Shown one piece after another: positions 20,192 to 57,711 of a stretch of DNA of 64,000 bases (positions are counted from its first letter, which is position 1; each line of letters opens with the position of its first letter). The notes under the pieces are model-generated. The model was not told the DNA's origin. It searched no databases and saw nothing but the letters and a program-made list of their open reading frames with translations. The DNA comes from Nitrospirae bacterium JdFR-86 (GTDB taxonomy: Bacteria > Nitrospirota > Thermodesulfovibrionia > Thermodesulfovibrionales > JdFR-86), in assembly GCA_002011815.1 (NCBI GenBank), contig MTOV01000015.1, forward strand, positions 1,405-65,404, given 5' to 3'. The translations under genes and the position numbers were made by a program.

Positions 20192-21172
20192 TTAAATCAA
20201 CCCCATTGCTTCTCTTACGAGGCTCATGGTTTGCTCTGCTGTTTTCCGTGCTTTTTCAGTCCCTTTGTCTATGGCTTCCTGGAGGACGTCAGGGTTGTTT
20301 ATGAGTTTTTGTCGTTTTTCCCATATAGGTTCAAGGGTTTTAAAGACGTTCTTTATGAGTATCTGTTTGCAATCCAGGCATCCTATGGCTGCGGTTCTGC
20401 AGCCGTGTGCAACCTCTTCTTGCTCTTCCTGTGTGGAGAATATTTTATGGAGCTGAAATACAGGTGAAAGTTCAGGGTCTCCTTTGTCGGTTCTTCTTTT
20501 TCTTGCAGGGTCTGTCATCATGGTCTTGATTTTCTTTTCGACTACATCAGGCGGGTCGCTCAGGTATATGGCATTGTCGTAGCTCTTGCTCATTTTTCTT
20601 CCGTCTGTGCCAGGCACTTTCGGAAACTCTGTAAGAAGCCCTTCTGGCTCAGGAAAGACTTTTTTGTAAAGATAGTTGAATCTTCTTGCAATCTCTCTTG
20701 TTATTTCAAGGTGCGGAAGCTGGTCTATGCCCACAGGAACATAGTCTGCCCTGTAAATCAGTATGTCAGCTGACTGCAATACAGGATAGCCTAAAAACCC
20801 GTAGGTATTAAGGTCTTTGTCTTTGAGTTCTTCTTTTTTCTCCTTGTAAGTAGGGACTCTTTCGAGCCATCCGAGCGGGGTTATCATGCTTAAGAGGATA
20901 TGAAGCTCTGCGTGCTCAAGCACTCTTGACTGAAGGAATATGGTGCACTTGTCCGGGTCCAGGCCGGCTGACAGAAAGTTTATCAGAAGGTCTGTAGTGC
21001 TTTCTTTTAATGCCTGTGGCTCTGTATATCCTGTTGTGAGAGCGTGCCAGTCGGCTACAAAATAATAACATTCGTATTTATCCTGAAGCCTTACCCAATT
21101 GCTCAGTGCACCTACAAAGTTTCCGATGTGGAGTTTTCCGCTTGCCTGCATTCCGCTTAAGACCCTCTGCAT
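20192..21172 (-). CDS. trpS: tryptophan--tRNA ligase
   Basis: HIGN (HIGH) and KMSKS motifs at class I TrpS size. Confidence 0.95.
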   Translation of the reverse strand: MQRVLSGMQASGKLHIGNFVGALSNWVRLQDKYECYYFVADWHALTTGYTEPQALKESTTDLLINFLSAGLDPDKCTIFLQSRVLEHAELHILLSMITPLGWLERVPTYKEKKEELKDKDLNTYGFLGYPVLQSADILIYRADYVPVGIDQLPHLEITREIARRFNYLYKKVFPEPEGLLTEFPKVPGTDGRKMSKSYDNAIYLSDPPDVVEKKIKTMMTDPARKRRTDKGDPELSPVFQLHKIFSTQEEQEEVAHGCRTAAIGCLDCKQILIKNVFKTLEPIWEKRQKLINNPDVLQEAIDKGTEKARKTAEQTMSLVREAMGLI

Positions 21173-21182
21173 TGAACCCTCC

Positions 21183-21851
21183 TTAAATTATTCTTAAGAG
21201 AGCCAGAAACAGACTGACTAACGGACTTATAAAGTATCTTGCTAGTCCAGTTGCAATAAGTATTATAACTATAAACATGCCGTAAGGCTCAATTCTGCTG
21301 AGCATTGCCGCCTGCCTTAATGGAAGAATTCCGACGAGGACTCTTCCGCCGTCAAGGGGAGGAATAGGCATAAGATTAAAAGATGCAAGCACTACATTTA
21401 TAACAATGCTTGAAGTAAGCATCATGTTAAGCGGCTTTAAGACAGTTAGTACTACGGATTCGGGTAGCAGAGCTGCTGCCGGAAGAAGAACGAATTTTAT
21501 TAGGAGCAGGCTTACCATGGCAAGCAGTATATTGGTCAGAGGTCCTGCTGCGGCTGATATAGCCGTGTCCCTTTTCGGGTCTTTGAAATTATACGGGTTT
21601 ATGGGGACAGGCTTTGCATATCCGAAGACGAACTGGCCGTTTGTAAATACCAGAAGGAGAAACGGCATGAGAATTGTTCCGAACAGGTCTATATGTGCAA
21701 TGGGATTCAGAGTGAGTCTTCCCAATGCTTTTGCGGTCCGGTCTCCGAGTTTATATGCAACAAAGCCGTGGGCAACCTCATGAAACGTGATTGCAACGAG
21801 AATCGGTACTGCCGATATGGCTATCTGTCTTAATACACCTGAAATGTCCAA
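21183..21851 (-). CDS. site-2 protease family (M50) membrane metalloprotease
   Basis: HEVAHG zinc motif, polytopic, and NLMPIPPLDGG motif. Confidence 0.85.
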   Translation of the reverse strand: MDISGVLRQIAISAVPILVAITFHEVAHGFVAYKLGDRTAKALGRLTLNPIAHIDLFGTILMPFLLLVFTNGQFVFGYAKPVPINPYNFKDPKRDTAISAAAGPLTNILLAMVSLLLIKFVLLPAAALLPESVVLTVLKPLNMMLTSSIVINVVLASFNLMPIPPLDGGRVLVGILPLRQAAMLSRIEPYGMFIVIILIATGLARYFISPLVSLFLALLRII

Positions 21852-21860
21852 GTATACAAC

Positions 21861-23525
21861 CTACTCAGGATTCAGTATCCTGTCTATAACGGTTCTTGCC
21901 ACTACAAGCGGGTCTATGAAGGAGTTGTCCATATCCTGGTCGATGTCCCTTTTGTTTGAAAGATAGGTGATTCTGTCCTGCATTCTGTCTCTCAGAAAAC
22001 GCAGATACTCAGGGTTCCTTGTAGGTTTGTATTTTTTGTCGTAGTCAGACCCAAAGAGTTCATTCCCGTTTTTAGGAAGCATAAGCCCTGTAAATGTGCG
22101 CCATTCCCTCCACTCGATTCTTTCTCTTACGAGTTCAGTCACTATGGACAGGGAGAGTTCTTTCGGAATGTCTATGAGCGAGCCTGGAAGTCCGAACGCA
22201 TGCGTGTTCATGATATAACATTCACAGCCCATCTTAAAGAGTTTCTTGAACTGCTGGCAATCCTCAAGCAGCGGATGAACTCTGAACGGGTTTGCAAACG
22301 GCTCTATGACGAGTTTTTCAAGCTCTTTCGGGTCTACGTTTTCAACGCCTTTTGCCCGCATCGTACTTAGCGAAGCTCCCATTGCAACGGCGAGAGAACT
22401 GCCGTTTACCTTGCAGATTGGCGGCAGACTTGTGTCCTTCTGAAGCCATATAACCTTGCCTGGTCTTTCGCAGAAATCAGCATGTTTGAACATATCCCGT
22501 GATTTAATGCATCTTCCGTTGTCGTTTCTTATATCTTCTGCCACGATTCTTCTTGAGCCGTCAGGCATTTGCGTAACCGCAACGTTTTGTGCCGAATAAA
22601 AATACTTTATAATCGGGTCGTTGAACTTTACTGCGTCGGTTTTGTCAAACAGTGAAGGTTCAAGCGCTACTGTAAAGTTATTTTCGAGATCTATAAGGAA
22701 GGCGTCGTCATGGATAACAGTGACTTTTTCACTTTTCTTTAGTGTGCCTTCGTGGTCAAGGCTGTTCGTTATGGAGGATTTTCCAGAGCCTGAAAGTCCG
22801 AATACAGCGATAGGAGGTTTGTTGCCTATCTTTTTGATTCCTCCGTGACAGGCAACCATGTTCTGTCTTACGCCTATTGTCCATGCGAGTGTGAGTGTGC
22901 CCTTCTTTCTTTCACCGAAGTATCTTAGTCCGAGTATGGCAATGTTGTTTTCCATTTCATCTATGATGACGAGCCCGTTAGGAAATTCAGGATGACGCCA
23001 TTCAGGGTCTGCAAACACCAGTATGTCAGGCTCATCGAGCTTGCGGGATTTTTTATACAGGTCAGACCACGGCTTCATAAACGGTGTGAAGTTTATGCCC
23101 CAGTCAAGCATGTTCTTTGCGTCGGTCTCCGGGCTAAGGAGATGTGCTTTTACCATGAAATCAGGATGCAGTCCCACGATTCCTTCAAGCCACAGGCACG
23201 GACGCCTGTTCATCTGGTAGACTGCCTCTTTCAGAATGCCCTGAAACTTGTCACTTTCTGCCTTTGTAAACTCTCTTACCAGCCGTCTTGCCCTTGCTGT
23301 TCTGCCTACGATACCTCCGTCGTTTGAGACGAGTATTTTTGCGCTTTTTGGCAGTCCAAACTGTTCAGGCTTGTGCATCGGCTCAGAAGTTATCATGACT
23401 TCAGGCTGTTTAAGTGCAAGCTTGTAAAGTTCAGCCATTGTGGTCTTTCTTACTGAGTTTGCAAAAAACGCACTCTCTAAGATTGCTCTCCAGGGTGACC
23501 CCGGTATTTTCCAGACAGAAGCCAT
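21861..23525 (-). CDS. divergent ATP-dependent phosphoenolpyruvate carboxykinase-like protein
   Basis: The P-loop FGLSGSGKSS aligns with PckA GLSGTGKTT. The downstream VIHDDAF segment aligns with GDDEHGW. Size is about 550 aa. Confidence 0.55.
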   Translation of the reverse strand: MASVWKIPGSPWRAILESAFFANSVRKTTMAELYKLALKQPEVMITSEPMHKPEQFGLPKSAKILVSNDGGIVGRTARARRLVREFTKAESDKFQGILKEAVYQMNRRPCLWLEGIVGLHPDFMVKAHLLSPETDAKNMLDWGINFTPFMKPWSDLYKKSRKLDEPDILVFADPEWRHPEFPNGLVIIDEMENNIAILGLRYFGERKKGTLTLAWTIGVRQNMVACHGGIKKIGNKPPIAVFGLSGSGKSSITNSLDHEGTLKKSEKVTVIHDDAFLIDLENNFTVALEPSLFDKTDAVKFNDPIIKYFYSAQNVAVTQMPDGSRRIVAEDIRNDNGRCIKSRDMFKHADFCERPGKVIWLQKDTSLPPICKVNGSSLAVAMGASLSTMRAKGVENVDPKELEKLVIEPFANPFRVHPLLEDCQQFKKLFKMGCECYIMNTHAFGLPGSLIDIPKELSLSIVTELVRERIEWREWRTFTGLMLPKNGNELFGSDYDKKYKPTRNPEYLRFLRDRMQDRITYLSNKRDIDQDMDNSFIDPLVVARTVIDRILNPE

Positions 23526-37766: not shown

Positions 37767-38855
37767 TTACTCAAGCCCTCCGTATGCATGAAGCCCGCTA
37801 AGGAGCAAATTAACTCCCAGATATGTGAATATTACAGCAACAAACCCCAGAACGGCTACTACTGAAATCTTATGACCTCTCCACCCCCTAAGAAGTCTGG
37901 CGTGAAGGTAAAATGCATATACGAACCATGTTATCAGGGACCATGTCTCTTTTGGGTCCCAGCTCCAGTAAACACCCCATGCCTGGTCAGCCCATATGGC
38001 GCCGAATATGAGTCCGCCCAGTGTGAATATCGGAAAACCAATTGCAATGCTCTTGTATGTAATCTCATCAAGTGTACTCGCCGAGATGTTAAATGTCTCT
38101 ATTATCCGCTTCAGTATATAGCCGTATCGCCATATAACGAACAGTAAAACAAAAGCTGCAATATAGCTTAGTATGGACACAATAGAAGAGTCGCTGAAGA
38201 ATGTCGCTTTAAAGAGATAACTTTTTATGAGTGCTTCCGGCTTCATCCCTGCCACTTTAAATTTCAGGAAATCAAGCCCCAGTGCTCCCAGCACGATTAC
38301 GAATATGCCGAGCATTACACTCCAGAATATGTAAGAGGCCTCTGTTTTTCTTTCCGTTGTTACTATCAGATACATCATTGCTGTGCTGAAGGACAGTGCA
38401 AATGTTGCGTATGATATAAAGCTCATTATGACGTGCACGAGCAGCCAGTTGCTCTGAAGTGCAGGCACGAGAGGCTGAATCTCTTTTGACATTCCGGAGA
38501 TGTCTATAAATGCAAGGGCAAGACCTGCAACAGGGGTTACAAAAGCACCGAAAGAGCGGTTCTTGTATTTGAATTCTACTACCAGGTAGCCCAGTATCAG
38601 ACACCACACAAAGAATATCAGGGATTCATAGAGATTGGTAATCGGCACTGACCTTAGTATTCCCATCTGGCTTATGTCGTAAAATTCTTTCCATCTGAGA
38701 AGAATGGCTAACGTCTGGCAGACAAAACCTGTTATAGTGATAGTGGTTGCCGCTACACCAACACCATGTTTTTTAAAGGCTATGTAGGTGATGTAGGTTA
38801 TCATCGCGAGGATATAAGCTACAGTTGAGATTCCGAAGAAGACGGAACTATCCAT
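37767..38855 (-). CDS. ccsA: cytochrome c biogenesis protein CcsA/ResC (System II)
   Basis: WGVYWSWDPKETW tryptophan-rich WWD motif; polytopic. Confidence 0.9.
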   Translation of the reverse strand: MDSSVFFGISTVAYILAMITYITYIAFKKHGVGVAATTITITGFVCQTLAILLRWKEFYDISQMGILRSVPITNLYESLIFFVWCLILGYLVVEFKYKNRSFGAFVTPVAGLALAFIDISGMSKEIQPLVPALQSNWLLVHVIMSFISYATFALSFSTAMMYLIVTTERKTEASYIFWSVMLGIFVIVLGALGLDFLKFKVAGMKPEALIKSYLFKATFFSDSSIVSILSYIAAFVLLFVIWRYGYILKRIIETFNISASTLDEITYKSIAIGFPIFTLGGLIFGAIWADQAWGVYWSWDPKETWSLITWFVYAFYLHARLLRGWRGHKISVVAVLGFVAVIFTYLGVNLLLSGLHAYGGLE

Positions 38856-40411
38856 TATTTTCCTCCTTCCTTCAGAAGGGCGACCATTTTATCGATTTTT
38901 CTTTCAAATGCCTCTCTGTTTTTATTTGCAGATGCGGCAACCATGACTTTTGTGTTGCCTTTCTCGGTGGTGACTCTCACCCATAGTCTGCGGTGGCTCA
39001 TGAAGAAAGCTATAAAGAGCCCCACGCTCATAGTAGCACAGCCAAGATAAACAATCCATACGCCGGGGTCCCGTCTTACCTGAAGTCCTGTGTATTGTGC
39101 ACCCCAGATGTCTACGAGTTCTACAATGTGTCCGTTCTGCAGCCGCCATGTAACAGGGTATCTCTCGAGTATCCATTTTTTGTATGTTTTGCCGTTTTCG
39201 TTAATCTCCAGTTGTGCTCCAGGGTTGTTCATCATCTCGGAATAAGTGAAAGCCCTTCCATCCTTATCAAACGAAAGTGCAGGACTCCAGTCGGTTACGG
39301 TCGCCTCAATGTTTGTGCCGGGAATAAGGAATTTTTCTCCCTGCCGGACTCTCAAAGTTTCCGAGACTCCGGTTTTCGATGTCGTCCTGAAAATAAACAG
39401 GAAACTGGAACTGTCAGGCATAATCCCGTAGCTTGACTGGTAAAACGTAATCCCCTTGTATCTCAGCGGGTCATTAACCTCTATTCGCTTTTTAAGAACC
39501 TCTTTGCCATTGTCTATAACCGTAAGGAGGCTGCTGTATTCCTTTGGCATGTCGGACCTGCCGTAAAACGATACGTCGAAGTCATCGCACCTGATGGAGA
39601 ATCCCAAAGGCATCATACCGAGCTTCTTCATTCTGGCTGTAAGGTGTGACTCTTCAACCCCGAGCTTGCGTGCCGCCATGGACACATCGCCCCCTGATAT
39701 CTCAAGGGCGTTGAAGATTATTCTTCGCTCTGAGATTTCTGCTGGTGTGAGTTCGCCTGTCTTTGTGAACGCAACTCCAAAGCTTTCTCCTTCCGGAAGG
39801 TTCAGAAACCCTTTGAACCCAAAAAATATTCCAATAAGTGCCCCTACAAGTATGACGAGAATGCTGAAATGGGTGATATAGACGCCAAGCCTGCTGTATC
39901 TCCCTTTTTCCCAGTAGAACTGATGACCACCAGGGTCGCTTGCCTCAGAGTATTTAAACCCCTCTGACCTGAGAACCGAGCCTACTGTTTCCTTTACTTT
40001 CTCTGTCTTGCCTTTAAGGGTAATTTCTCTTTTTATGGGTATTGCCTTGAAGTGTTCTTCTTTTAAGGGTTTAATCGGTTCCTTTACCAGCTTCCATATC
40101 GAGGGGAATCTGTCAATCGAACATACAAGCAGGTTGGCTGCAAAGAGCATGAGCAATGTCACAAACCACCATGAGTGATACATGTCCATGAAGCCCAGTG
40201 CGTCGAATATTCTATACAGGGTTGGAGCAAGGGATTCGCCGAATAACTTGCTGATTACCTGGATGTTTTTCTCAGGTGATGCCTGCTGTTCGAGTATGGT
40301 TCCAATAATGGATGTAAGTGCTATCAGGGAGAATACTATGATAGCCAGTTTTACAGAGGCAAGAAAATCCCATATCCGGTCGATTATATTTTTGTCCTTT
40401 GATTTTGCCAT
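38855..40411 (-). CDS. ccsB: cytochrome c biogenesis protein ResB/CcsB (System II) with an internal HTH-like insert
   Basis: ResB N-terminus (FLASVKLAIIVFSLIALTSIIGTILEQ), TM pattern and conserved His contexts. Lies adjacent to ccsA. Confidence 0.85.
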   Translation of the reverse strand: MAKSKDKNIIDRIWDFLASVKLAIIVFSLIALTSIIGTILEQQASPEKNIQVISKLFGESLAPTLYRIFDALGFMDMYHSWWFVTLLMLFAANLLVCSIDRFPSIWKLVKEPIKPLKEEHFKAIPIKREITLKGKTEKVKETVGSVLRSEGFKYSEASDPGGHQFYWEKGRYSRLGVYITHFSILVILVGALIGIFFGFKGFLNLPEGESFGVAFTKTGELTPAEISERRIIFNALEISGGDVSMAARKLGVEESHLTARMKKLGMMPLGFSIRCDDFDVSFYGRSDMPKEYSSLLTVIDNGKEVLKKRIEVNDPLRYKGITFYQSSYGIMPDSSSFLFIFRTTSKTGVSETLRVRQGEKFLIPGTNIEATVTDWSPALSFDKDGRAFTYSEMMNNPGAQLEINENGKTYKKWILERYPVTWRLQNGHIVELVDIWGAQYTGLQVRRDPGVWIVYLGCATMSVGLFIAFFMSHRRLWVRVTTEKGNTKVMVAASANKNREAFERKIDKMVALLKEGGK

Positions 40412-44286: not shown

Positions 44287-44337
44287 TTGCAATTTTTACT
44301 TTTGCAAAACTGCAAAACGCCTTGCAAACCTGCAAAA
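44287..44337. repeat. five closely spaced TGCAAA(A/C)C direct repeats in a divergent promoter region
   Basis: TGCAAA occurs at 44288, 44303, 44311, 44323 and 44331. Confidence 0.55.
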
Positions 44338-44451: not shown

Positions 44452-45339
44452 ATGAGACTGTCTTTTCCACGGCTTGTATCTTTTATAAACATTGCCCTTT
44501 TAGCGGCACTGGTTGTTTTAAGTCTTGTATTCATAAGAGACGTCATATCTTTTGCTCTGAAGAAGCCCTTGAAAGAGTCCCGGTCCGTTGAGAAAACCGA
44601 CAATCAACTGAAGAAGCAGGCAAGGAGAAAGCTTCAGGATTATGCGCCTGTTCTTAAGAACAATGTATTTGGGTTTCCTGCCGGCGAACTCAAGCCGCTT
44701 TCGTCTTCATCCCTTTCAACGCCAGTGGAGATTGCAGATGTAGATATAAAGCTTTCTGGCACAGTATCCTGGGCAAGTGGATTCGGTTATGCAGTGGTTT
44801 TAGATACCTCCGGACAGCAGGAAGTCTATAAAACAGGGGATTATATTCCTGGTGCAGGCTATCTGAGACGGGTGGACAAGGACAGGATAATCATAGAAGC
44901 AGGAAAAGAAAGTGTAGAGATTCCGCTTGCTGAAATCACTGTCCTGAAAGAGGTGGGCAGGGCTGCAAAAACAGGCAGAAGGCATGGTAAGTTCCGGAGA
45001 TTTGCGAGAAAAACCTCAGAACATTCCTATATCGTTGATCAGAAGGCAATAGAGTCAGCGCTTGAAAACCCAAAACAGATAATGACAGATGCCAGACTTT
45101 TGCCAAATATGGTTGAAGGCAGGCAAGAAGGTTTTGTCATCAAGGAGATAAAGCCCGGTGGCATATATCAGAGTCTTGGCTTAAAAAACGGGGATGTTCT
45201 TCTCAGGGTCAATGAGTTTGATATATCCGACCCTGAGACTGCACTTCAAGCCTTTACAGCACTGAGGGGTATGGACAGAGTAGAGCTTGATATATTAAGA
45301 AACGGCTCAAAGATAACCTTGACATATCTAATAAGGTAA
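44452..45339 (+). CDS. gspC: type II secretion system protein C-like (TM anchor + PDZ domain)
   Basis: The ATG at 44452 gives an N-terminal TM helix (FINIALLAALVVLSLVFI). C-terminal PDZ-like region (GIYQSLGLKNGDVLLRVNEFDI). Immediately upstream of the secretin gene. Confidence 0.7.
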   Translation: MRLSFPRLVSFINIALLAALVVLSLVFIRDVISFALKKPLKESRSVEKTDNQLKKQARRKLQDYAPVLKNNVFGFPAGELKPLSSSSLSTPVEIADVDIKLSGTVSWASGFGYAVVLDTSGQQEVYKTGDYIPGAGYLRRVDKDRIIIEAGKESVEIPLAEITVLKEVGRAAKTGRRHGKFRRFARKTSEHSYIVDQKAIESALENPKQIMTDARLLPNMVEGRQEGFVIKEIKPGGIYQSLGLKNGDVLLRVNEFDISDPETALQAFTALRGMDRVELDILRNGSKITLTYLIR

Positions 45340-45355: not shown

Positions 45356-47473
45356 ATGGGTGGAAGGAAGTATATCCTGTGTCTTGTTATTCTTTGTTTG
45401 CTGGCAGTGCCTTTTTCCATCAGTGCGGCAGAGACCAGGGACGAGAAAGTCACATTCAACTTTGTGAATGTAGAGCTGACTGCTGTCGCAAAGTTCATAA
45501 GTGAGATTACAGGAAAAAACTTTATATTCGACGACAGGGTAAGAGGGAAGGTAACGATAATAGCTCCTTCGAGACTGAGCATAGATGACGCATACAGTCT
45601 TTTTACATCTGTGCTGAAACTTAAAGGGTTTACCCTTGTGCCATCCGGTGTAGATGCCTACAAGATTGTTCCTGCCTCAGAGGCAAGACGGTTGGGCGTA
45701 GAGATAACGGTGGAAAGACCTCCAGTCAATGAGAGCTATATCGCCCGTCTGATACCGTTAAAATACATCTCTTCTGACGATGCCCTCAGGTTTATACAGC
45801 CGGTCGTTTCAAAAGACGGCCATATATCTTCGTTTGGTCCGGGCAATCTTCTGTTTGTAGTGGACTCCGGCCTGAATGTGGAAAAGATACTCAGCATCCT
45901 GGAGGTGATAGACCAGCCGCCTTTAAGTGAAGAGCCGGATGTGGTGTTCCTGAGACATTCAAGTGCAGAGTCCATTGCAAGGATACTGAACGAGGGTATG
46001 AGTAGAGTAAAAAAGCCAACTGCAGGGCAGGCAAAGGCAGTGGCAGACCAGAGACTTAATGCAGTTGTGCTTTTCGGTAATAAAGGTGCAAAAGAGGCAA
46101 TGAGACGGCTCATCGCACTGCTTGATGTGCCTTCAAAAGAGACACAGGGCACTATAAATGTATATTTCCTTGAAAATGCCGATGCAGAGGAACTTGCCGG
46201 AGTCCTTGAAAGACTGCTTAAAGCCCCGCAGACCAGCCGGAAGGCACCAAAAGGTCAGCCTTCTCCGTTTGAGTCTATAAGTGGTATAACCATCACTCCT
46301 GATAAGGCGACGAATGCCCTTGTAATAGTTGCTTCTCCTGCGGATTACCGCAGTCTTGTTCAGGTCATAAAGCAACTGGACAAAAGGAGAAAACAGGTAT
46401 TCGTCGAGGCTATGATAGTTGAAGCCTCTATAGACAAACTCAGGGAGCTGGGTGCAAAATGGCGAGCCATAGGAAGGAACAAAGGCGAGCCTGTGTTTGT
46501 AGCCGGCGTGGGCACCGTGGATTCAGCCACAATACAGACGATAATAAGCGGACTGGCAGGACTTACTGTGGGCGGTATGGGAAATTTCATGACCGTGCCG
46601 ATAACACAGGCAGACGGTACACAGACTGATATTACTATCCCGGGCTTTGCAGCCCTGTTCAGCCTTAGTGAATTCAAAGATGCAGTGAATGTGCTTTCAA
46701 CCCCTCAGATACTCACCTCTGACAATACAGAGGCAGAGATAGTCGTTGGCGAAAACGTGCCTTTTATATCAAAAAGAGAGCGCGATATAACCACTACGAA
46801 TACAGTGCTCAGTTCTATCGAAAGAAAAGACGTGGGCATAACCCTGAGGATTACCCCCCAGATAACAGAAGGCGACTATGTAAGATTAGACATATATCAG
46901 GAGATATCCTCTGTTAAAGAGCCTCCGGCAGCCATTGCAGAAAGCATACTTACGTCTGTCGGGCCGACAACGACCAAGCGCTCTACAAAGACCTCTGTCA
47001 TAGTCAAGAACAGACAGACCGTTGTCATCGGAGGGCTCATGCAGGAAAAACAGGAGACCATTGTCAGCAAGGTTCCCATTCTCGGTGACATCCCGATTTT
47101 AGGCTGGCTTTTTAAGCACAAAAGCGTATCCAAAAGAAAGACCAACCTTATTGTATTTCTTACTCCGCACATAATTGAGGACTCTGAAGAGCTTCAGAGG
47201 ATTACCAGCGAAAAACAGGACGAGTTTGCACGAAAGCAGAAACAATACGCTGAAGGAGAGCTCCTTGTGAAATTCAAGCCGGATGTGACAGAACAGGAGG
47301 CATTGAACTTAATCTCTGAAAAAGGCGCTGAGGTGATAAAGTTCTTTGAGGACTTAAGAATTTATCATGTAAAGATTAGAGAGGGACTGACTGTTGAGGA
47401 TGCCCTTGAGGAGTTTCTCTCCCTGCCTGAAGTCGAATACGCAGAGCCAAATTATAAGATGAAAACCCAGTAA
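45356..47473 (+). CDS. gspD: type II secretion system secretin GspD with an unusual C-terminal extension
   Basis: Signal peptide, N0-N3 repeats, and a secretin core (VPILGDIPILGWLFK...LIVFLTPHII). The extra about 72-aa tail ends in VEYAEPNY. Confidence 0.9.
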   Translation: MGGRKYILCLVILCLLAVPFSISAAETRDEKVTFNFVNVELTAVAKFISEITGKNFIFDDRVRGKVTIIAPSRLSIDDAYSLFTSVLKLKGFTLVPSGVDAYKIVPASEARRLGVEITVERPPVNESYIARLIPLKYISSDDALRFIQPVVSKDGHISSFGPGNLLFVVDSGLNVEKILSILEVIDQPPLSEEPDVVFLRHSSAESIARILNEGMSRVKKPTAGQAKAVADQRLNAVVLFGNKGAKEAMRRLIALLDVPSKETQGTINVYFLENADAEELAGVLERLLKAPQTSRKAPKGQPSPFESISGITITPDKATNALVIVASPADYRSLVQVIKQLDKRRKQVFVEAMIVEASIDKLRELGAKWRAIGRNKGEPVFVAGVGTVDSATIQTIISGLAGLTVGGMGNFMTVPITQADGTQTDITIPGFAALFSLSEFKDAVNVLSTPQILTSDNTEAEIVVGENVPFISKRERDITTTNTVLSSIERKDVGITLRITPQITEGDYVRLDIYQEISSVKEPPAAIAESILTSVGPTTTKRSTKTSVIVKNRQTVVIGGLMQEKQETIVSKVPILGDIPILGWLFKHKSVSKRKTNLIVFLTPHIIEDSEELQRITSEKQDEFARKQKQYAEGELLVKFKPDVTEQEALNLISEKGAEVIKFFEDLRIYHVKIREGLTVEDALEEFLSLPEVEYAEPNYKMKTQ

Positions 47474-49784: not shown

Positions 49785-49813
49785 AGGAACAGTCAGTTTA
49801 AAAGAAGAGGTTG

Positions 49814-51751
49814 ATGCCGCATAAAAAGGTATTGTTTATTACCCCGTCCTACCATTGCGGGGTTGTGGAAGTAGCCGGTCATTGGATTCCCCTTCAATTC
49901 GTCTATCTTGGCGGCGCTGTCAGGGAAGCAGGTTTTGAGCCGATTGTTTACGATGCCATGACAAAGCGGCATAGCCTTGAGACAATAGCAAAAAAGATTG
50001 CAGATGTAAATCCGGATTATGTCGCTACCACGGCAATCACCGCAACAGTGCTTGATGCGCTGGAGGTTCTAAGGGTTGCAAAGGAGATAAATCCGGATAT
50101 CATCACCATTATTGGAGGGGTGCATCCTACTTTTCTTTATGACGAGGTTCTTGAGAACAAATATGTTGATTATGTTGTAAGAGGAGAGGGGGAGGAGACC
50201 ATTAAAGAGCTGCTTTTAGCTCTGGAAGGAGGCAGGGGACTTGACCGTGTAAGGGGGATAGCATACAGGAGCGGACGGCAGGTTATAACCACGTCAGCAA
50301 GGCCTTTTATTCAGGACTTGGACGGGCTTTCTCCTGCGTGGGACTTAATCGACTGGAAGGATTACAGGTATTTCGTCATACCCCGCAGCCGGCTTGGAGC
50401 GGTAAGCACCTCAAGAGGCTGCAGTCATAACTGCGCCTTTTGTTCACAGCAGAAGTTCTGGCATCAGTCGTGGCGGGGAAGGCAGCCAGAAAGTGTGGTT
50501 AAAGAGCTGGAACATTTAACCAGGACTTACGGGGTCAATGTCTTTTTAATCCCTGATGAGCATCCTACACAGGACAGGGAGCGGTGGGAAAGACTTCTTG
50601 ACCTGCTTATAGAAAGGGACTTGGGCATATATCTCCTGATGGAGACAAGGGCGGAAGACATCGTAAGGGACAGGGATATCCTGTACAAGTATAGGAAGGC
50701 AGGGGTTGTCCATATCTACATAGGGGTTGAGGCGACAAGGCAGGAGACGCTTGACCTTATAAAAAAAGACATGAAGGTGGAGACCGGAGCAGAGGCAATA
50801 AGGCTTATTCACGAGCACGGTATGATTACCGAGACGAGCTTTATCTTAGGCTTTCCGGACGAGACGAAAAAATCGATAAGAAACACCCTCAGGCTTTCCA
50901 AGTTTTACAATCCGGATTTCGCACATTTTCTTGCACTGGCTCCATGGCCCTATGCCGATATGTTCAAAGAGCTTGAACCTTATATCGCAGTAAGAGATTA
51001 CAGGAAATACAATCTTATCGAGCCTGTCATCAAGCCTGAAAAGATGAGTATCAAGGCTGTGGACAAGGCAATCATTGACTGCTACCAGAGCTTTTACATG
51101 AGCAAGCTCAAAGAGATACTGTCAATGGAGGATGCCTTTAAGAGAGGCTATCTGCTACGTTCCATGAAATTGATAATGAGCAGCTCGTTTATTGTAGACA
51201 AACTTGGCTCGCTCGGCAGGATTCCGCCTCAGGTCAACGCACTGCTTAATAAGCTGGAGAAGGAGAAAGTGGCGGATGAAGGCGTGCCGCAGGACTCGAT
51301 GTCAGAAGTATCAAGGTCTGTAAAGATCAATGCACCCTTGGGAAAAGTTTTTGAATATGTTGTAAACCCTTTAAACTGGCCCAGTTATGTTATGAGCCTC
51401 GTAAGCGTGAAGAACCTCTCCAACAAGGTTCCTGTATCAGGCACTACGTTTGAGTGGACATACAGAATGCTCGGCCTGAATCTAAAAGGCAAGGGCAGGG
51501 TGCTTGAATACGAAAAGGACAAAAAGTTTGCAGTAAAGATGCATGGTGCATTTCCAATAATAGAGACGTTTCTGTTTGAAGGAGACTCTAAGGCAACAAG
51601 ATTGACCATTAAAATCAACTATGAAGTTCCCGGCAAGGTGCTTGGTGTTTTAGCTGACAAACTTCTCATAGAGAAGATAAATGCGAAAGAGGCAGAGACC
51701 GTGCTTAAAAAAATAAAGATGATTTGTGAAAGCGAAAGTGCTACCATGTAA
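49814..51751 (+). CDS. B12-binding-domain radical SAM enzyme fused to a C-terminal SRPBCC (START/polyketide-cyclase-like) domain
   Basis: N-terminal cobalamin-binding-like Rossmann region. CSHNCAFC (CxxxCxxC) radical SAM cluster. The C-terminal about 150 aa (VSRSVKINAPLGKVFEYVVNPLNWPSY...) is SRPBCC-like. Confidence 0.75.
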   Translation: MPHKKVLFITPSYHCGVVEVAGHWIPLQFVYLGGAVREAGFEPIVYDAMTKRHSLETIAKKIADVNPDYVATTAITATVLDALEVLRVAKEINPDIITIIGGVHPTFLYDEVLENKYVDYVVRGEGEETIKELLLALEGGRGLDRVRGIAYRSGRQVITTSARPFIQDLDGLSPAWDLIDWKDYRYFVIPRSRLGAVSTSRGCSHNCAFCSQQKFWHQSWRGRQPESVVKELEHLTRTYGVNVFLIPDEHPTQDRERWERLLDLLIERDLGIYLLMETRAEDIVRDRDILYKYRKAGVVHIYIGVEATRQETLDLIKKDMKVETGAEAIRLIHEHGMITETSFILGFPDETKKSIRNTLRLSKFYNPDFAHFLALAPWPYADMFKELEPYIAVRDYRKYNLIEPVIKPEKMSIKAVDKAIIDCYQSFYMSKLKEILSMEDAFKRGYLLRSMKLIMSSSFIVDKLGSLGRIPPQVNALLNKLEKEKVADEGVPQDSMSEVSRSVKINAPLGKVFEYVVNPLNWPSYVMSLVSVKNLSNKVPVSGTTFEWTYRMLGLNLKGKGRVLEYEKDKKFAVKMHGAFPIIETFLFEGDSKATRLTIKINYEVPGKVLGVLADKLLIEKINAKEAETVLKKIKMICESESATM

Positions 51752-51777: not shown

Positions 51778-52404
51778 GTGGAGCCGAAAAACCTGGATGT
51801 AAGAGGGCTTAAGTGTCCTGAGCCTCTAAAGAGGACTCAGGAGGAACTGGAATCAATAAAAGAAGGCGTTTTAGTTGTTCTTGCCGAAAGTCCTGCAAAT
51901 TTGAGCATAGAGAGGTTTTCAAGGAAGTCAGGGTTTAGGATCGAAAGCACCAAGCGCGAGGGCTACCACGAGCTTAAGATAATAAAGACTCCTCACAGCA
52001 AGCCGAAAAAAGAAGGCATCCTGCAGAGGCTTATGCGGTTTGTGAAGAGAAACAAACAGGTTGAGGGGTTGAATGATACGATGGTTGTGGTCTCAACGAA
52101 TGTGTTTGGAAGACACGAGGACATAGGCAGGGTGCTCATGAAAGGGTTTTTTGAGACGATGAAGGTTATGGGTGACATACCGGCTGTCATGTTTTTCATG
52201 AACTCAGGGGTTTTGCTTACTACAACGGATGAGGAGATAATTCCCCTGCTTAAAGAATTTGAGTCCGAGGGCGTGGAGATATACTCCTGCAGCACCTGTC
52301 TTAAGCACTTTAATCTTGAGGAAAGTCTAAAGGTCGGACAGGCAGGAGGCATGGCAGTGCTTACCGACGGAATGAGAACATATAAGAAAATTGTAACTAT
52401 ATAA
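51778..52404 (+). CDS. yedF: YedF-type selenium-metabolism protein (TusA/SirA-like N-domain + DsrE-like C-domain), copy 1
   Basis: GTG start after GGAGGTGG. The motif is GLKCPEP (CPxP) and the C-terminal motif is YSCSTCLKHF. Confidence 0.7.
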   Translation: MEPKNLDVRGLKCPEPLKRTQEELESIKEGVLVVLAESPANLSIERFSRKSGFRIESTKREGYHELKIIKTPHSKPKKEGILQRLMRFVKRNKQVEGLNDTMVVVSTNVFGRHEDIGRVLMKGFFETMKVMGDIPAVMFFMNSGVLLTTTDEEIIPLLKEFESEGVEIYSCSTCLKHFNLEESLKVGQAGGMAVLTDGMRTYKKIVTI

Positions 52405-56394: not shown

Positions 56395-57711
56395 ATGGTG
56401 GAGAATACTTTGTTACATGTAGAAGCAAAGAAGGCTTTAAAAGGGCACTTAGAAAGAATTTTGAATAATTGTAAAGTGAATGAAGGTGTTATTGATTTTG
56501 ATGATGATATCTATAGAGATATTTACAGTTATGTAAATGAGACAAAAAAGCATAAAAAAGTATGGATGCGTGATATAGACATACTTGGCGTCTTATACAA
56601 ACAAGTTTCAAATTATTTGAGTGAACATATCAAAAATTATTGGGAAACCTCGGGAGAATTAAAAAACATTATTGGGAATAAAACTATTAAAAGCTTATGT
56701 AGTAGAATTATTTCTTATTTAGAGTCCATTCCTAGAGATTATTTTGTCTTTTTTGAACTTCCTTATGTACGAGGAATAGGCGTAAAAGAAATAAGTTTAA
56801 CAAATAATATTTCATTTATAGAAGTAATTAATGATAATGATTTTTCTGAGGTTAGTGTTCCATACAATATAAGTATACCAAGGACAGGCGCTCTTGCCAT
56901 GGGGCTTTTGGGCAGTCCCCATGGTTATAAACTCAAAAAGGGACGATTGTATGTTCGTATCCAAGCTGATGGATATGCAGATGGGACATTAGAGAGTAGC
57001 GCAATAAAGAAGGCATACTCAAGATTCAAACAGGTAATTTTCCTTTCTAAATTATCAGGAGTGCTTACAGAAGGAAATGTAAAGACCTCGTCATCTAGAT
57101 TCCCTGATACAACTCCACAAGTGTATGCAATCTATGCCAAAGAACCAAGTACTGAAAAATATGGTTTTAACCTCCCTGAAACAGTATATGGCTATATATC
57201 AAGGCTTAGCATCAATGAAGATAGCTTAAAACCTACTAAATTAGAAATTTTTGCGGAATCGTTCGAAAATAAAGAATCCTTAACTCCAAAAGATAAAGCT
57301 AAAATTCTTAAAAACCGTCTTCACTATCCTATTAAATTATTGCAAACCTCTGAGGATGATAAAATCACTGAGCCGATAAAAACTGCGATTGAATGGGCTC
57401 TTGATTCACTTACTAATGACAATAATACATTTGCTTTTTTACAAGCATGTATAGGACTTGAAGCGATATTAGGAGATAACAATACTCGAGAAAAGCTGAC
57501 TGAAACTTTGGCAGACCGATGCGCTTATTTACTAGGAAACAGTATTCATACAAGAAGAGAGATAAGAAAAAAATTTGTGAAATTATATCGTAGCCGTTCT
57601 AAACTTATTCATGGCAGGAAAGCAATCTTAGGTAACGAAGAGCTTGGCTTATTAAGGTATGCTCAAAATATATTGAGTCGAATTATTTTGAAAGAAATTT
57701 CCTATATTTAA
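56395..57711 (+). CDS. AT-rich orphan protein with a C-terminal HEPN-like domain (Rx4H motif)
   Basis: Long ORF in a region that is visibly much more AT-rich than its flanks. The C-terminal helical region contains LYRSRSKLIHG (R-x4-H at 57595-57612). The N-terminal about 320 aa have no motif I recognise. Confidence 0.6.
   Translation: MVENTLLHVEAKKALKGHLERILNNCKVNEGVIDFDDDIYRDIYSYVNETKKHKKVWMRDIDILGVLYKQVSNYLSEHIKNYWETSGELKNIIGNKTIKSLCSRIISYLESIPRDYFVFFELPYVRGIGVKEISLTNNISFIEVINDNDFSEVSVPYNISIPRTGALAMGLLGSPHGYKLKKGRLYVRIQADGYADGTLESSAIKKAYSRFKQVIFLSKLSGVLTEGNVKTSSSRFPDTTPQVYAIYAKEPSTEKYGFNLPETVYGYISRLSINEDSLKPTKLEIFAESFENKESLTPKDKAKILKNRLHYPIKLLQTSEDDKITEPIKTAIEWALDSLTNDNNTFAFLQACIGLEAILGDNNTREKLTETLADRCAYLLGNSIHTRREIRKKFVKLYRSRSKLIHGRKAILGNEELGLLRYAQNILSRIILKEISYI

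What the first reader, a model, noticed from the sequence alone, without database searches (positions are those of the whole stretch)
47255..47470. Secretin GspD carries a C-terminal subtilase-propeptide-like (I9/fervidolysin-N-pro-like) domain
After the conserved secretin core and the LIVFLTPHII end, the protein continues for about 72 aa: GELLVKFKPDVTEQEALNLISEKGAEVIKFFEDLRIYHVKIREGLTVEDALEEFLSLPEVEYAEPNY. The pattern (E/I)LVKFKP...G..V....L.....V......V.EA......P.VEYAEPNY is the signature I associate with N-terminal pro-domains of bacterial S8 subtilases. Secretins normally end in a short pilotin-binding S-domain. A propeptide-like beta-alpha-beta module fused there is unusual. It could act as a docking, inhibitor or chaperone module for a secreted protease, or as a replacement for a pilotin interaction.
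Basis: partly seen in the sequence, partly recalled or inferred. Interest (0 to 1): 0.6.

Follow-up and report, generated by a model that had tools for sequence, protein, structure and literature searches.

The report
Secretin with a protease-prodomain tail
The outer-membrane pore protein (GspD) of this bacterium's type II secretion system really does end in a module copied from the "pro" piece of subtilisin-type proteases; this is standard across its whole bacterial class, appears undescribed, and suggests the pore itself can grip or silence a protease.

Summary
ORF 45356-47473 (+) is a complete GspD secretin. Its last ~75 residues score 65.5 bits (cutoff 21) on Pfam PF22148 (fervidolysin N-prodomain). 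They fold with pLDDT ~90 as β-α-β-β-α-β, and the best PDB fold matches are subtilase prodomains.

It is not an artefact. The identical protein occurs in two independent assemblies. The fusion is present in all 120 closest database clusters and in 75 of 80 species-level genomes, nearly all Nitrospirota, class Thermodesulfovibrionia.

The module starts where the distal, pilotin-binding S-domain lies in classical secretins. The protein usually ends exactly 5 residues after the AEPNY motif. Those five residues are patterned (hydrophobic, K/R, hydrophobic, Q/K/R) and align with the P5-P1 end of a cleaved subtilisin prosegment.

In 15 of 80 genomes, mostly one subclade, the T2SS operon is flanked by lipoprotein S8 peptidases that carry their own prodomain of the same family.

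Best reading, inferred and not shown: a periplasmic ring of secretin-tethered prodomain mimics that docks or inhibits cognate subtilases. Main rival: a structural or pilotin-replacing module. I rate it a new variant of a known kind, of moderate-to-good interest.

The parts
44452..45339 (+). gspC (T2SS protein C with a PDZ domain), immediately upstream of gspD. The maximal ORF starts at 44287.
   Evidence: Pfam T2SSC and PDZ hits. The JGI gene call L085 2097-2984 maps to these coordinates. gspC sits directly upstream of gspD in nearly all related loci.
45356..47473 (+). gspD, the 705-aa secretin with a C-terminal prodomain-like module (coordinates include the stop codon)
   Evidence: ORF. TIGR02517 scores 539 bits. 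Pfam N0, Secretin_N x3, Secretin and PF22148. An identical protein, P0001, is in the public collection.
45455..45667 (+). N0 domain (aa 34-104)
   Evidence: PF21305, E=4e-25
46676..47179 (+). Secretin β-barrel domain (aa 441-608), ending ...NLIVFLTPHII
   Evidence: PF00263, E=1e-50. Aligns to solved GspD 15-mers 5wq7, 6i1x and 6hcg.
47183..47236 (+). Single α-helix (aa 610-627), homologous to the first helix of the classical S-domain. It links the barrel to the tail.
   Evidence: AF2 helix H610-627. aa 603-635 align to E. coli K-12 GspD residues 567-599 of 627.
47246..47455 (+). Subtilase-prodomain-like module (structured core aa 631-700; Pfam envelope aa 620-699), β-α-β-β-α-β, ending in strand VEYAEPNY
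   Evidence: PF22148, 65.5 bits. AF2 pLDDT ~90. Foldseek hits 1r6v, 3whi, 1spb_P and others.
47456..47470 (+). C-terminal pentapeptide KMKTQ (aa 701-705). It is conserved in pattern, predicted flexible, and in register with P5-P1 of a cleaved subtilisin prosegment.
   Evidence: Low pLDDT coil. BLASTP register against the BPN' prosegment. Pattern statistics over 170 C-termini. Length distributions.

Best explanation
GspD here is a normal T2SS secretin in which the distal, pilotin-binding part of the S-domain has been replaced by a paralogue of the N-terminal prodomain of fervidolysin-type S8 (subtilisin-like) peptidases.

Shown:
- The module has the prodomain sequence signature and fold.
- It was acquired once and has been inherited with the secretin across class Thermodesulfovibrionia.
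- It lies after the first S-domain helix, so it sits on the periplasmic side at the outer periphery of the barrel. That gives 15 copies per pore, if this secretin is a 15-mer like the solved GspDs.
- It ends in a conserved, flexible pentapeptide that is in register with the P5-P1 strand of a processed subtilisin prosegment.

Inferred:
- The module binds the catalytic domain of cognate S8 peptidases in trans. Its β-sheet and the E-x-N of AEPNY would rest on the protease surface, and its C-terminal strand would lie in the substrate cleft. It would act as a secretin-tethered temporary inhibitor, chaperone or docking site.
- The likely partners are the lipoprotein subtilases that flank the T2SS operon in some relatives. 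These are lipid-anchored through their own prodomain, so autoprocessing would free the catalytic domain. The ring of prodomain mimics at the secretin, at outer-membrane level, could capture that domain and keep it silent until export.

In this particular window gspC-gspD stand alone. Any partner protease must be encoded elsewhere in the genome.
For: Domain identity: PF22148 at 65.5 bits. AF2 pLDDT ~90 with β-α-β-β-α-β topology. The best Foldseek hits are all subtilase prodomains. They also include 3wqb_B, the trans-acting ORF2 chaperone of Aeromonas sobria protease.

Conservation: the fusion is present in all 120 nearest clusters, in 75 of 80 species-level genomes, and in most hits around the most divergent member. 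The tails form one clade in a tree.

Retained prodomain signature: 24 of the 44 positions that are ≥60% conserved in cis N-pros are kept in the tails. These include GELLVKFK and V.YAEPNY, with E 98%, P 95% and N 85% conserved. In the divergent magnetotactic branch the E-x-[D/E] pattern persists. From my own knowledge of the 1SPB complex, the equivalent residues Glu69 and Asp71 of the BPN' prosegment cap two helices of the protease.

C-terminal register: the Y of PNY aligns to H72 of the 77-residue BPN' prosegment, so Q705 aligns to P1. Across 170 distinct C-termini, +2 is hydrophobic in 94%, +3 is K/R in 88%, +4 is hydrophobic in 84%, and +5 is Q/K/R/H in 86%. The stop falls exactly at +5 in 79 of 170, and sequence beyond +5 is variable. 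In cis N-pros the same position precedes [A/T]-x-P-N-D of the mature enzyme.

Links to S8 peptidases:
- 15 of 80 loci have S8 genes with their own PF22148 directly upstream of gspC and/or just after the T2SS operon, on the same strand.
- These S8 genes have lipoboxes.
- The nearest non-secretin relatives of the tail are small stand-alone secreted proteins or lipoproteins encoded next to S8 genes.
- Some S8 peptidases carry a second, tail-like copy at their own C-terminus.

Precedent: ORF2 inhibits and chaperones its protease with its free C-terminus in the catalytic site (PMC5638518).
Against: No binding, inhibition or complex model was obtained, so the interaction is an inference.

The window has no S8 gene in 64 kb. 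Most related loci (65 of 80) show none within ±10 kb.

The S8-T2SS linkage is mainly one subclade: 12 of the 15 linked loci, and about 3 independent occurrences in all.

Tail versus N-pro identity within a genome is barely higher than between genomes (35.7 vs 32.9 ± 5.0%), so there is no co-evolution signal.

The linked S8s have their own prodomains, so they do not need a foldase in trans.

Rare variants continue beyond the module into a linker and a SPOR domain, so a free C-terminus at +5 is not obligatory.

The conserved motifs may partly be fold determinants.

The module sits outside the barrel, so it cannot touch cargo inside the channel.
Confidence: 0.5

Rival explanations
1. Structural or assembly module. 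The prodomain fold was co-opted as a substitute for the distal S-domain and pilotin. It would stabilise the 15-mer from outside, aid outer-membrane targeting, or connect the secretin to the cell wall, and it would have no protease partner.
For: The module starts exactly where the pilotin-binding part of the S-domain lies in solved GspDs. Rare variants append a linker and a peptidoglycan-binding SPOR domain to it, so this end of the protein is used for envelope anchoring. Most loci, including the window, have no S8 gene nearby. The tails have their own conserved signature in helix 1 that differs from cis N-pros. Natural tail-less secretins exist, so it is an accessory module.
Against: The prodomain's protease-facing signature (E-P-N) is kept. 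So is a patterned, flexible C-terminal pentapeptide that stops at the P1-equivalent position. Neither is expected for a mere scaffold. The closest relatives are all encoded beside, or fused to, S8 peptidases. The S8-T2SS synteny occurs in 15 loci.
Confidence: 0.3
2. Lipoprotein-subtilase-as-pilotin. The tail is the handle by which an outer-membrane lipoprotein S8 peptidase binds the secretin monomer. The peptidase would pilot or anchor the secretin to the outer membrane and so functionally replace a classical pilotin.
For: The operon-linked S8 peptidases have canonical lipoboxes followed by Gly. The tail replaces the pilotin-binding segment. Several stand-alone tail-like proteins also carry lipobox-like signals.
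Against: In the S8 proteins the lipid anchor is on the prodomain, and the tail would compete with that prodomain for the catalytic domain. After autoprocessing the catalytic domain would no longer be lipid-anchored. Linkage is limited to about one subclade. Only 22 of 84 stand-alone relatives match a lipobox pattern. There is no direct evidence.
Confidence: 0.08
3. The tail is a processed pro-region of the secretin itself, or a decoy substrate. It would be cleaved by a subtilase at the +5 position to regulate secretin maturation. Alternatively its C-terminal peptide could be a ligand for the PDZ domain of GspC.
For: Some variants continue beyond +5 with variable polar sequence or long linkers that could be trimmed. 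GspC has a PDZ domain that could in principle bind C-termini.
Against: In 79 of 170 sequences the gene itself stops at +5, so there is nothing to cleave. The C-terminal residue is Q, K or R, whereas (from my own knowledge) most PDZ ligands end in a hydrophobic residue. The variable extensions also argue against a fixed PDZ ligand. No evidence of processing is available.
Confidence: 0.07
4. Artefact: a gene fusion created by a sequencing or assembly error, or a chance resemblance.
For: None found. In two loci (L070, L078) the tail lies in a separate stop-to-stop segment, which looks like a local frameshift in those MAGs.
Against: The identical ORF is present in two independent assemblies. The same architecture is found in hundreds of homologues down to 48% identity. 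The Pfam E-value is 6e-18.
Confidence: 0.01

Closest known systems
Classical T2SS secretins GspD/PulD/XcpQ with a C-terminal S-domain bound by a lipoprotein pilotin (PulS, AspS)
   Same: Same N0-N1-N2-N3-secretin architecture, scoring above the TIGR02517 cutoff. gspC is adjacent. The first S-domain helix is conserved and aligns to 5wq7, 6i1x and 6hcg, which are 15-mers.
   Different: The distal S-domain, which is the pilotin-binding segment (own knowledge of PulD-PulS and GspD-AspS), is replaced by a ~70-residue globular subtilase-prodomain-like module. No solved secretin matched beyond the first S-helix.
N-terminal prodomains of fervidolysin-type and subtilisin-type S8 peptidases (Pfam PF22148; PDB 1R6V, 1SPB_P, 1SCJ_B, 3CNQ_P)
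   Same: Sequence signature (GELLVKFK ... VEYAEPNY), β-α-β-β-α-β fold, and a C-terminal strand in register with P5-P1 of the prosegment.
   Different: It is not attached to a protease. It sits at the C-terminus of a secretin with a genetically encoded free end at the P1-equivalent position. Its conserved P1-equivalent is Q, K or R, and helix 1 has its own signature.
ORF2, the external (trans-acting) chaperone and temporary inhibitor of Aeromonas sobria serine protease (PDB 3WQB_B)
   Same: A prodomain-like fold acting in trans, with its free C-terminal residues in the protease catalytic site (PMC5638518). It appears among the Foldseek hits (prob 0.99, E=0.05).
   Different: ORF2 is a soluble stand-alone protein for a protease that lacks its own propeptide. 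Here the module is fused to the secretin, and the candidate proteases have their own prodomains. Structural similarity is only moderate.
Stand-alone PF22148 proteins, and S8 peptidases with a second C-terminal PF22148 copy (uncharacterised metagenomic proteins found here)
   Same: These are the closest sequence relatives of the tail, at 38-57% identity. They have free C-termini a few residues after PNY, and the stand-alone ones group with the tails in the tree.
   Different: They are encoded beside, or fused to, the protease rather than the secretin. Their function is equally untested.
Lipoprotein T2SS cargo such as Klebsiella pullulanase PulA, and self-piloting liposecretins such as HxcQ (own knowledge)
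   Same: The lipoprotein S8 peptidases encoded in these T2SS operons resemble the PulA situation, a lipidated exoprotein encoded with its T2SS. The lack of a recognisable pilotin-binding segment parallels pilotin-independent secretins.
   Different: No evidence was obtained that the S8 lipoproteins are secreted. GspD here has an ordinary signal peptide, not a lipobox.

Membership tests
T2SS secretin GspD (TIGR02517 / Pfam Secretin) | Full-length match above the curated equivalog cutoff | tested here: met
   TIGR02517 scores 539.1 bits against a cutoff of 351.35, covering aa 34-617
T2SS secretin GspD (TIGR02517 / Pfam Secretin) | N0, repeated Secretin_N (N1-N3) and a C-terminal secretin barrel domain | tested here: met
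   PF21305, PF03958 (3 stretches) and PF00263
T2SS secretin GspD (TIGR02517 / Pfam Secretin) | Genomic association with other gsp genes | tested here: met
   gspC lies directly upstream in the window. gspE-L are not in the window, but they follow gspD in most homologous loci.
T2SS secretin GspD (TIGR02517 / Pfam Secretin) | Complete S-domain with a pilotin-binding C-terminal segment | tested here: not met
   Only the first S-helix (aa 610-627) is present and alignable to solved GspDs. The distal part is replaced by PF22148. This feature varies among secretins and does not decide membership.
Fervidolysin_NPro-like prodomain (Pfam PF22148) | Profile score above the gathering threshold | tested here: met
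   65.5 bits on the full protein and 69.2 bits on the tail alone, against a cutoff of 21
Fervidolysin_NPro-like prodomain (Pfam PF22148) | Subtilase-prodomain fold (four-stranded antiparallel sheet with two helices, β-α-β-β-α-β) | tested here: met
   AF2 model with pLDDT ~90. Foldseek top hits are 1r6v, 3whi, 1spb_P, 1scj_B, 3cnq_P and 2z56_B.
Fervidolysin_NPro-like prodomain (Pfam PF22148) | Located N-terminal to an S8 catalytic domain in the same polypeptide | tested here: not met
   The module is C-terminal on a secretin, and there is no S8 catalytic domain in the protein or anywhere in the 64-kb window
Fervidolysin_NPro-like prodomain (Pfam PF22148) | Acts as an intramolecular chaperone and inhibitor that binds the S8 active site | not testable with these tools
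   Only indirect evidence is available: the C-terminal register and pattern and synteny
Peptidase inhibitor I9 (Pfam PF05922) | Profile match to PF05922 | tested here: not met
   No PF05922 hit at E ≤ 1. The only hits are PF22148 and a sub-threshold PF16361.
External propeptide-like chaperones (ASP ORF2 type) | Prodomain-like fold acting in trans with a free C-terminus that enters the catalytic site | tested here: inconclusive
   Fold similarity to 3wqb_B is E=0.05, prob 0.99. A free C-terminus in the P1 register is present. Binding was not tested.
External propeptide-like chaperones (ASP ORF2 type) | Encoded adjacent to its protease, which lacks its own propeptide | tested here: not met
   There is no S8 gene in the window. 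In the 15 linked loci the S8 genes have their own N-pro.

The most novel reading that the evidence does not exclude
The secretin carries a built-in, cargo-specific receptor and inhibitor. Fifteen tethered prodomain mimics at the periplasmic rim would capture mature lipoprotein-derived subtilases released from their own lipid-anchored prodomains. They would hold the enzymes inactive at the pore and hand them to the T2SS. In a bolder form, a lipoprotein subtilase bound to this tail would take over the role of the pilotin. Either would be the first secretin shown to recognise a specific exoprotein, or a piloting partner, through a domain borrowed from that partner's own maturation machinery.
Probability: 0.3. 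Interest if true: 0.8.

Novelty: new variant of a known kind. Interest (0 to 1): 0.58.

Why it matters
Two questions about type II secretion remain only partly answered: how the system recognises folded cargo, and how secretins without known pilotins reach and stabilise in the outer membrane.

This is a whole bacterial class (Thermodesulfovibrionia, including magnetotactic Nitrospirota) in which the secretin's pilotin-binding end is replaced by a protease-prodomain paralogue. In some members the operon also encodes lipoprotein subtilases with the matching prodomain. Together these give a concrete hypothesis that can be tested biochemically with two small recombinant proteins: do they bind, and does the tail inhibit the protease?

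It also shows that the subtilase prodomain is a mobile trans-acting module. It occurs stand-alone, at the C-terminus of proteases, and on a secretin. This is relevant to protease regulation and to the engineering of protease inhibitors.

If instead the module is purely structural, it would still be a new solution to secretin assembly.

Tried and rejected
1. Sequencing or assembly artefact. Rejected: the identical ORF is in two assemblies, and the architecture is conserved in hundreds of homologues.

2. The tail supplies a prodomain to a protease that lacks one. I first thought the S8 gene in L002 had no prodomain, but that gene call was 5'-truncated. The full ORF has its own N-pro. All operon-linked S8s also have one.

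3. An S8 peptidase or other gsp genes in the window. None found. tblastn finds only the tail itself, and Pfam scans of 20 neighbouring ORFs show unrelated genes.

4. Recent duplication or gene conversion between the tail and the neighbouring S8 N-pro. Rejected: the tails are monophyletic, and same-genome identity is not elevated.

5. Gene fission in tail-less secretins. Rejected: gspE follows directly, with no separate PF22148 gene.

6. Sequence-only search of the PDB with a tail profile. This was uninformative. 1r6v scored only E=0.29, and the top hits were designed helical repeats. The structural search was needed.

7. NCBIfam gave nothing for the tail.

8. Literature searches for a secretin-prodomain fusion, for PF22148, and for pilotins in Nitrospirota found no description.

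9. The organism's name could not be obtained. The cluster look-up gave no accession or name, and the window's species is not among the 80 best GTDB loci, where the maximum identity is 68%.

10. The PDZ-ligand idea for the C-terminus was judged unlikely. The terminus is polar or basic, and the extensions are variable.

11. The full-length AF2 monomer was of too low confidence (mean pLDDT 64) to say where the tail packs relative to the barrel.
Full report
**1. The observation**

The region lies in one uninterrupted ORF, 45356..47473 on the + strand (705 aa). The finding's coordinates, 47255-47470, are aa 634-705: GELLVKFKPDVTEQEALNLISEKGAEVIKFFEDLRIYHVKIREGLTVEDALEEFLSLPEVEYAEPNYKMKTQ.

The protein is a bona fide T2SS secretin:
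- NCBIfam TIGR02517 (GspD equivalog) scores 539 bits against a cutoff of 351, over aa 34-617.
- Pfam finds N0, three Secretin_N stretches and the Secretin domain at aa 441-608.
- gspC (T2SSC + PDZ) is directly upstream.

The tail hits Pfam PF22148, "Fervidolysin N-terminal prodomain", at E=6e-18 and 65.5 bits against a cutoff of 21. The match spans aa 620-699 and profile positions 4-81 of 81. There is also a sub-threshold hit to PF16361 (Peptidase_S8_N). The classical I9 family PF05922 is not hit.

No other ORF of 50 aa or more overlaps the tail on either strand. Base composition is unremarkable. No terminator-like site separates gspD from the next gene, larC.

**2. It is real and conserved**

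The identical 705-aa protein is encoded on a 357,841-bp JGI metagenome contig and, independently, in a Logan SRA assembly. Both have the same neighbours.

All 120 best hits in the 5.8-billion-protein collection carry the same four Pfam domains, PF22148 included. They are 60-71% identical, 688-790 aa long, and those with a source name are called GspD of Nitrospirota, Thermodesulfovibrionales or "Nitrospira sp." MAGs.

A scan of GTDB species representatives returned 546 relatives. The best 80 loci (48-68% identity) are nearly all Nitrospirota of class Thermodesulfovibrionia: Thermodesulfovibrionales, Dissulfurispiraceae, Ca. Sulfobium, Ca. Magnetobacterium and Ca. Magnetominusculus. Six are MAGs labelled Desulfobacter*, Syntrophales or Thermodesulfobacteriota.

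An HMM of the tail finds the module inside the GspD ORF in 75 of the 80 loci. In two more (L070, L078) it lies in a separate stop-to-stop segment, probably a frameshift. The remaining three are truncated by contig ends.

A search seeded from the most divergent member (Ca. Magnetominusculus, L080) again returns mostly PF22148-bearing secretins. So the fusion is the normal state of GspD in this class.

**3. Structure**

AF2 was run on aa 609-705 with 30 homologues. It gives pLDDT of about 90 for aa ~631-700. The topology is β-α-β-β-α-β, and VEYAEPNY forms the last strand. The preceding linker and the last five residues are low-confidence coil.

The best Foldseek hits against the PDB are all subtilase prodomains:
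- fervidolysin 1R6V (E=7.6e-4)
- unprocessed pro-subtilisin E, 3WHI
- the BPN' prosegment 1SPB_P (target TM 0.73, rmsd 2.1 Å), plus 1SCJ_B and 3CNQ_P
- the Tk-subtilisin propeptide
- PCSK9 and furin/PC1 prodomains

The list also includes 3WQB_B, the ORF2 external chaperone of Aeromonas sobria serine protease.

A sequence-only profile search of the PDB was not informative; 1r6v scored only E=0.29.

In the full-length monomer model (mean pLDDT 64) the tail stays confident at 88-90. It is joined to the last barrel strand (aa 587-607) by one helix, aa 610-627.

Solved GspD 15-mers (5WQ7, 6I1X, 6HCG) align up to aa ~635, that is, through the first S-domain helix. E. coli K-12 GspD residues 567-599 of 627 match aa 603-635. 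The module therefore replaces the distal S-domain, which in classical systems binds the pilotin (own knowledge).

This places the module in the periplasm, outside the barrel and near the outer membrane. Rare variants that continue after the module with a long acidic/proline-rich linker and a SPOR (peptidoglycan-binding) domain support this location: P0163, P0165, and P0151, which has two tandem modules.

**4. The C-terminal end**

BLASTP of the tail against the subtilisin BPN' pro-region aligns the Y of PNY (residue 75 of 80) with H72 of the 77-residue prosegment. Both sequences then have five more residues. GspD's last residue, Q705, is therefore in register with P1 (Tyr77) of a cleaved prosegment.

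| Position after PNY | Residue class | Frequency in 170 distinct GspD C-termini |
|---|---|---|
| +2 | I/L/M/V/F | 94% |
| +3 | K/R | 88% |
| +4 | hydrophobic | 84% |
| +5 | Q/K/R/H | 86% |

The stop codon falls exactly after +5 in 79 of the 170. Whatever lies beyond +5 is polar and variable.

In genuine cis N-pro domains the same stretch reads x-V-x-V-[Q/A]-[A/T]-x-P-N-D, running into the mature enzyme.

A conserved peptide that is flexible in isolation looks like a partner-binding strand. With +5 as P1, the invariably hydrophobic +2 would be P4, the main hydrophobic subsite of subtilases (own knowledge).

**5. Conservation of prodomain signatures**

The tails keep 24 of the 44 positions that are ≥60% conserved in cis N-pros. 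These include GELLVKFK (β1) and V·YAEPNY (β4), with E 98%, P 95% and N 85% conserved. The tails also have their own signature in helix 1.

In the BPN' prosegment the residues equivalent to E697 and N699 (Glu69 and Asp71) cap two helices of the protease. This rests on my own knowledge of the 1SPB complex and was not re-derived here.

In the magnetotactic branch the motif drifts (KFAEKED, KYVEQDY, KYVEPEY) but keeps E-x-[D/E].

Four clusters are full-length secretins that end just after the S-helix: P0305, P0345, P0352 and P0357. In the two contexts examined (P0352, P0345), gspE follows directly and there is no separate PF22148 gene. The tail is therefore an accessory module that can be lost.

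**6. Relatives of the tail outside secretins**

An exhaustive phmmer search of 1.84 billion representatives gave 1101 hits at E ≤ 1e-3. Among the best 150 are the following groups:
- Secretin C-termini.
- Many stand-alone proteins of 80-200 aa. 22 of 84 match a lipobox pattern.
- Ordinary N-pro domains of long S8 proteins.
- S8 peptidases that carry a second copy at their extreme C-terminus: P0156, P0170, P0190 and P0208.

Where I looked, the stand-alone genes sit immediately upstream of S8 peptidase genes that have their own N-pro. L001 also has gspJ and gspK about 3 kb away; L002 and L003 show the same arrangement with an S8 gene.

In an NJ tree the 58 extracted GspD tails fall on one side together with only these stand-alone proteins. 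The S8 N-pros lie outside that group. Same-genome tail versus N-pro identity is 35.7%, against 32.9 ± 5.0% across genomes. This indicates an old single acquisition and no gene conversion.

**7. Synteny**

In most related loci gspD is part of the operon gspC-D-E-F-G...K-L. In the window gspC-gspD are isolated. They lie between two ADH genes and small ORFs on one side, and larC, lysR and a B12-radical-SAM gene on the other. There is no S8 and no other gsp gene in the 64 kb examined.

In 15 of the 80 loci an S8 peptidase gene lies beside the operon on the same strand:
- Upstream of gspC in 12 loci: directly upstream in 11, and at -5.4 kb in L083.
- Just after the operon, at +8.8 to +10 kb, in 9 loci.

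In L046, from a complete chromosome, Pfam confirms this order: S8 (N-pro + S8 + fn3), gspC, gspD with tail, gspE, gspF, gspG... gspK, gspL, and then a second S8 with its own N-pro.

Almost all of these S8 proteins begin with a canonical lipobox, L-[AIVS]-[ASG]-C-G. They are therefore predicted lipoproteins anchored through the N-terminus of their own prodomain. The catalytic motifs (DSG, HGTH, GTSM) are visible in the L046 downstream S8.

Caveat: on a GspD-core tree 12 of the 15 linked loci form one subclade of 13. The others are a sister pair and a singleton. The linkage thus represents about three independent occurrences, not fifteen.

**8. Mechanism**

Shown:
- A prodomain-fold module at the periplasmic, outer rim of the secretin.
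- Class-wide purifying selection on the prodomain signature and on a P5-P1-like terminal strand.
- Repeated genomic association of this domain subfamily with S8 peptidases and, in one subclade, with the T2SS operon.

Inferred:
- The module binds the catalytic domain of cognate subtilases in trans, as a tethered temporary inhibitor, chaperone or docking site.
- A plausible sequence of events follows. The lipoprotein pro-S8 folds and autoprocesses. This frees the catalytic domain from its lipid-anchored prodomain. The domain is then captured by one of the 15 tails at the pore and kept inactive until export.

The precedent is ORF2 of A. sobria, a trans-acting propeptide-like chaperone and inhibitor. 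Its free C-terminal residues occupy the catalytic site, and its IC50 is 84 nM (PMC5638518).

Main rival: a structural or pilotin-replacing role without a protease partner. This is supported by the module's position, the SPOR-extended variants, and the absence of nearby S8 genes in most loci.

I put about 0.5 on the protease-binding reading, about 0.3 on the structural reading, and the rest on minor alternatives.

**9. Novelty**

Searches of 8 million full-text papers and preprints found no paper that describes the architecture. The terms covered secretin with prodomain, propeptide or fervidolysin; PF22148; and secretin, pilotin and Nitrospira.

The architecture is visible in precomputed Pfam annotations, so it is not hidden. 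It appears to be unstudied.

I classify it as a new variant of a known kind: a secretin with a novel accessory domain. The mechanistic hypothesis is concrete and testable.

Noticed in passing
L001:8001-8327; L002:8001-8336 (also L003, L004); proteins P0121-P0150: A family of small (about 100-135 aa) secreted or lipoprotein stand-alone PF22148 proteins, encoded immediately upstream of S8 peptidase genes that already have their own prodomain. They are the closest non-secretin relatives of the GspD tail, and they end 5-15 residues after PNY.
   Followed up: partly
P0156, P0170, P0190, P0208 (metagenomic proteins): S8 peptidases that carry two PF22148 modules: the usual N-terminal prodomain and a second copy at the extreme C-terminus after fn3 or PKD domains. 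The C-terminal copy is the one most similar to the GspD tail.
   Followed up: partly
P0151, P0163, P0165: Secretin variants in which the prodomain-like module (two tandem copies in P0151) is followed by a 150-230-residue acidic/proline-rich linker and a SPOR-like peptidoglycan-binding domain. None was found among the 80 reference-genome loci.
   Followed up: partly
L046:6973-8697 and L046:~20230-22127; likewise L021, L034, L048, L054, L056, L059, L063, L067, L073: T2SS operons bracketed by lipoprotein subtilases whose lipobox precedes their own prodomain. Autoprocessing would therefore detach the catalytic domain from its lipid anchor.
   Followed up: partly
P0153, P0155, P0158 (about 3000-3300 aa): Giant proteins with two or three PF22148 modules, some located internally at around residues 800-2000. 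This suggests multi-protease polyproteins or repeated pro/catalytic units.
   Followed up: no
window 45356-47473 compared with L005-L084: In the window gspC-gspD are detached from gspE-M and are followed by larC. In most relatives gspE starts about 300 bp after the end of the GspD core match. The rest of this genome's T2SS must be elsewhere.
   Followed up: partly
L070:11738-12034; L078:11692-12282: In two MAGs the tail lies in a separate stop-to-stop segment at the end of gspD. This is probably a frameshift or assembly error, or possibly a genuine split.
   Followed up: no
window 38855-40411 (-): A ResB-like cytochrome c biogenesis protein (PF05140) with an internal match to the Fis-type HTH_8 motif (E=5e-6) at aa 226-264. 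This is an odd combination for a membrane protein and is possibly spurious.
   Followed up: no
window 49811-51751 (+): A B12-binding radical SAM protein fused to a C-terminal SRPBCC/Polyketide_cyc2 domain. It is followed at 51778-52404 by a TusA-DsrE fusion.
   Followed up: no
window 56395-57711 (+): A 438-aa ORF with no Pfam family at E ≤ 1e-5.
   Followed up: no
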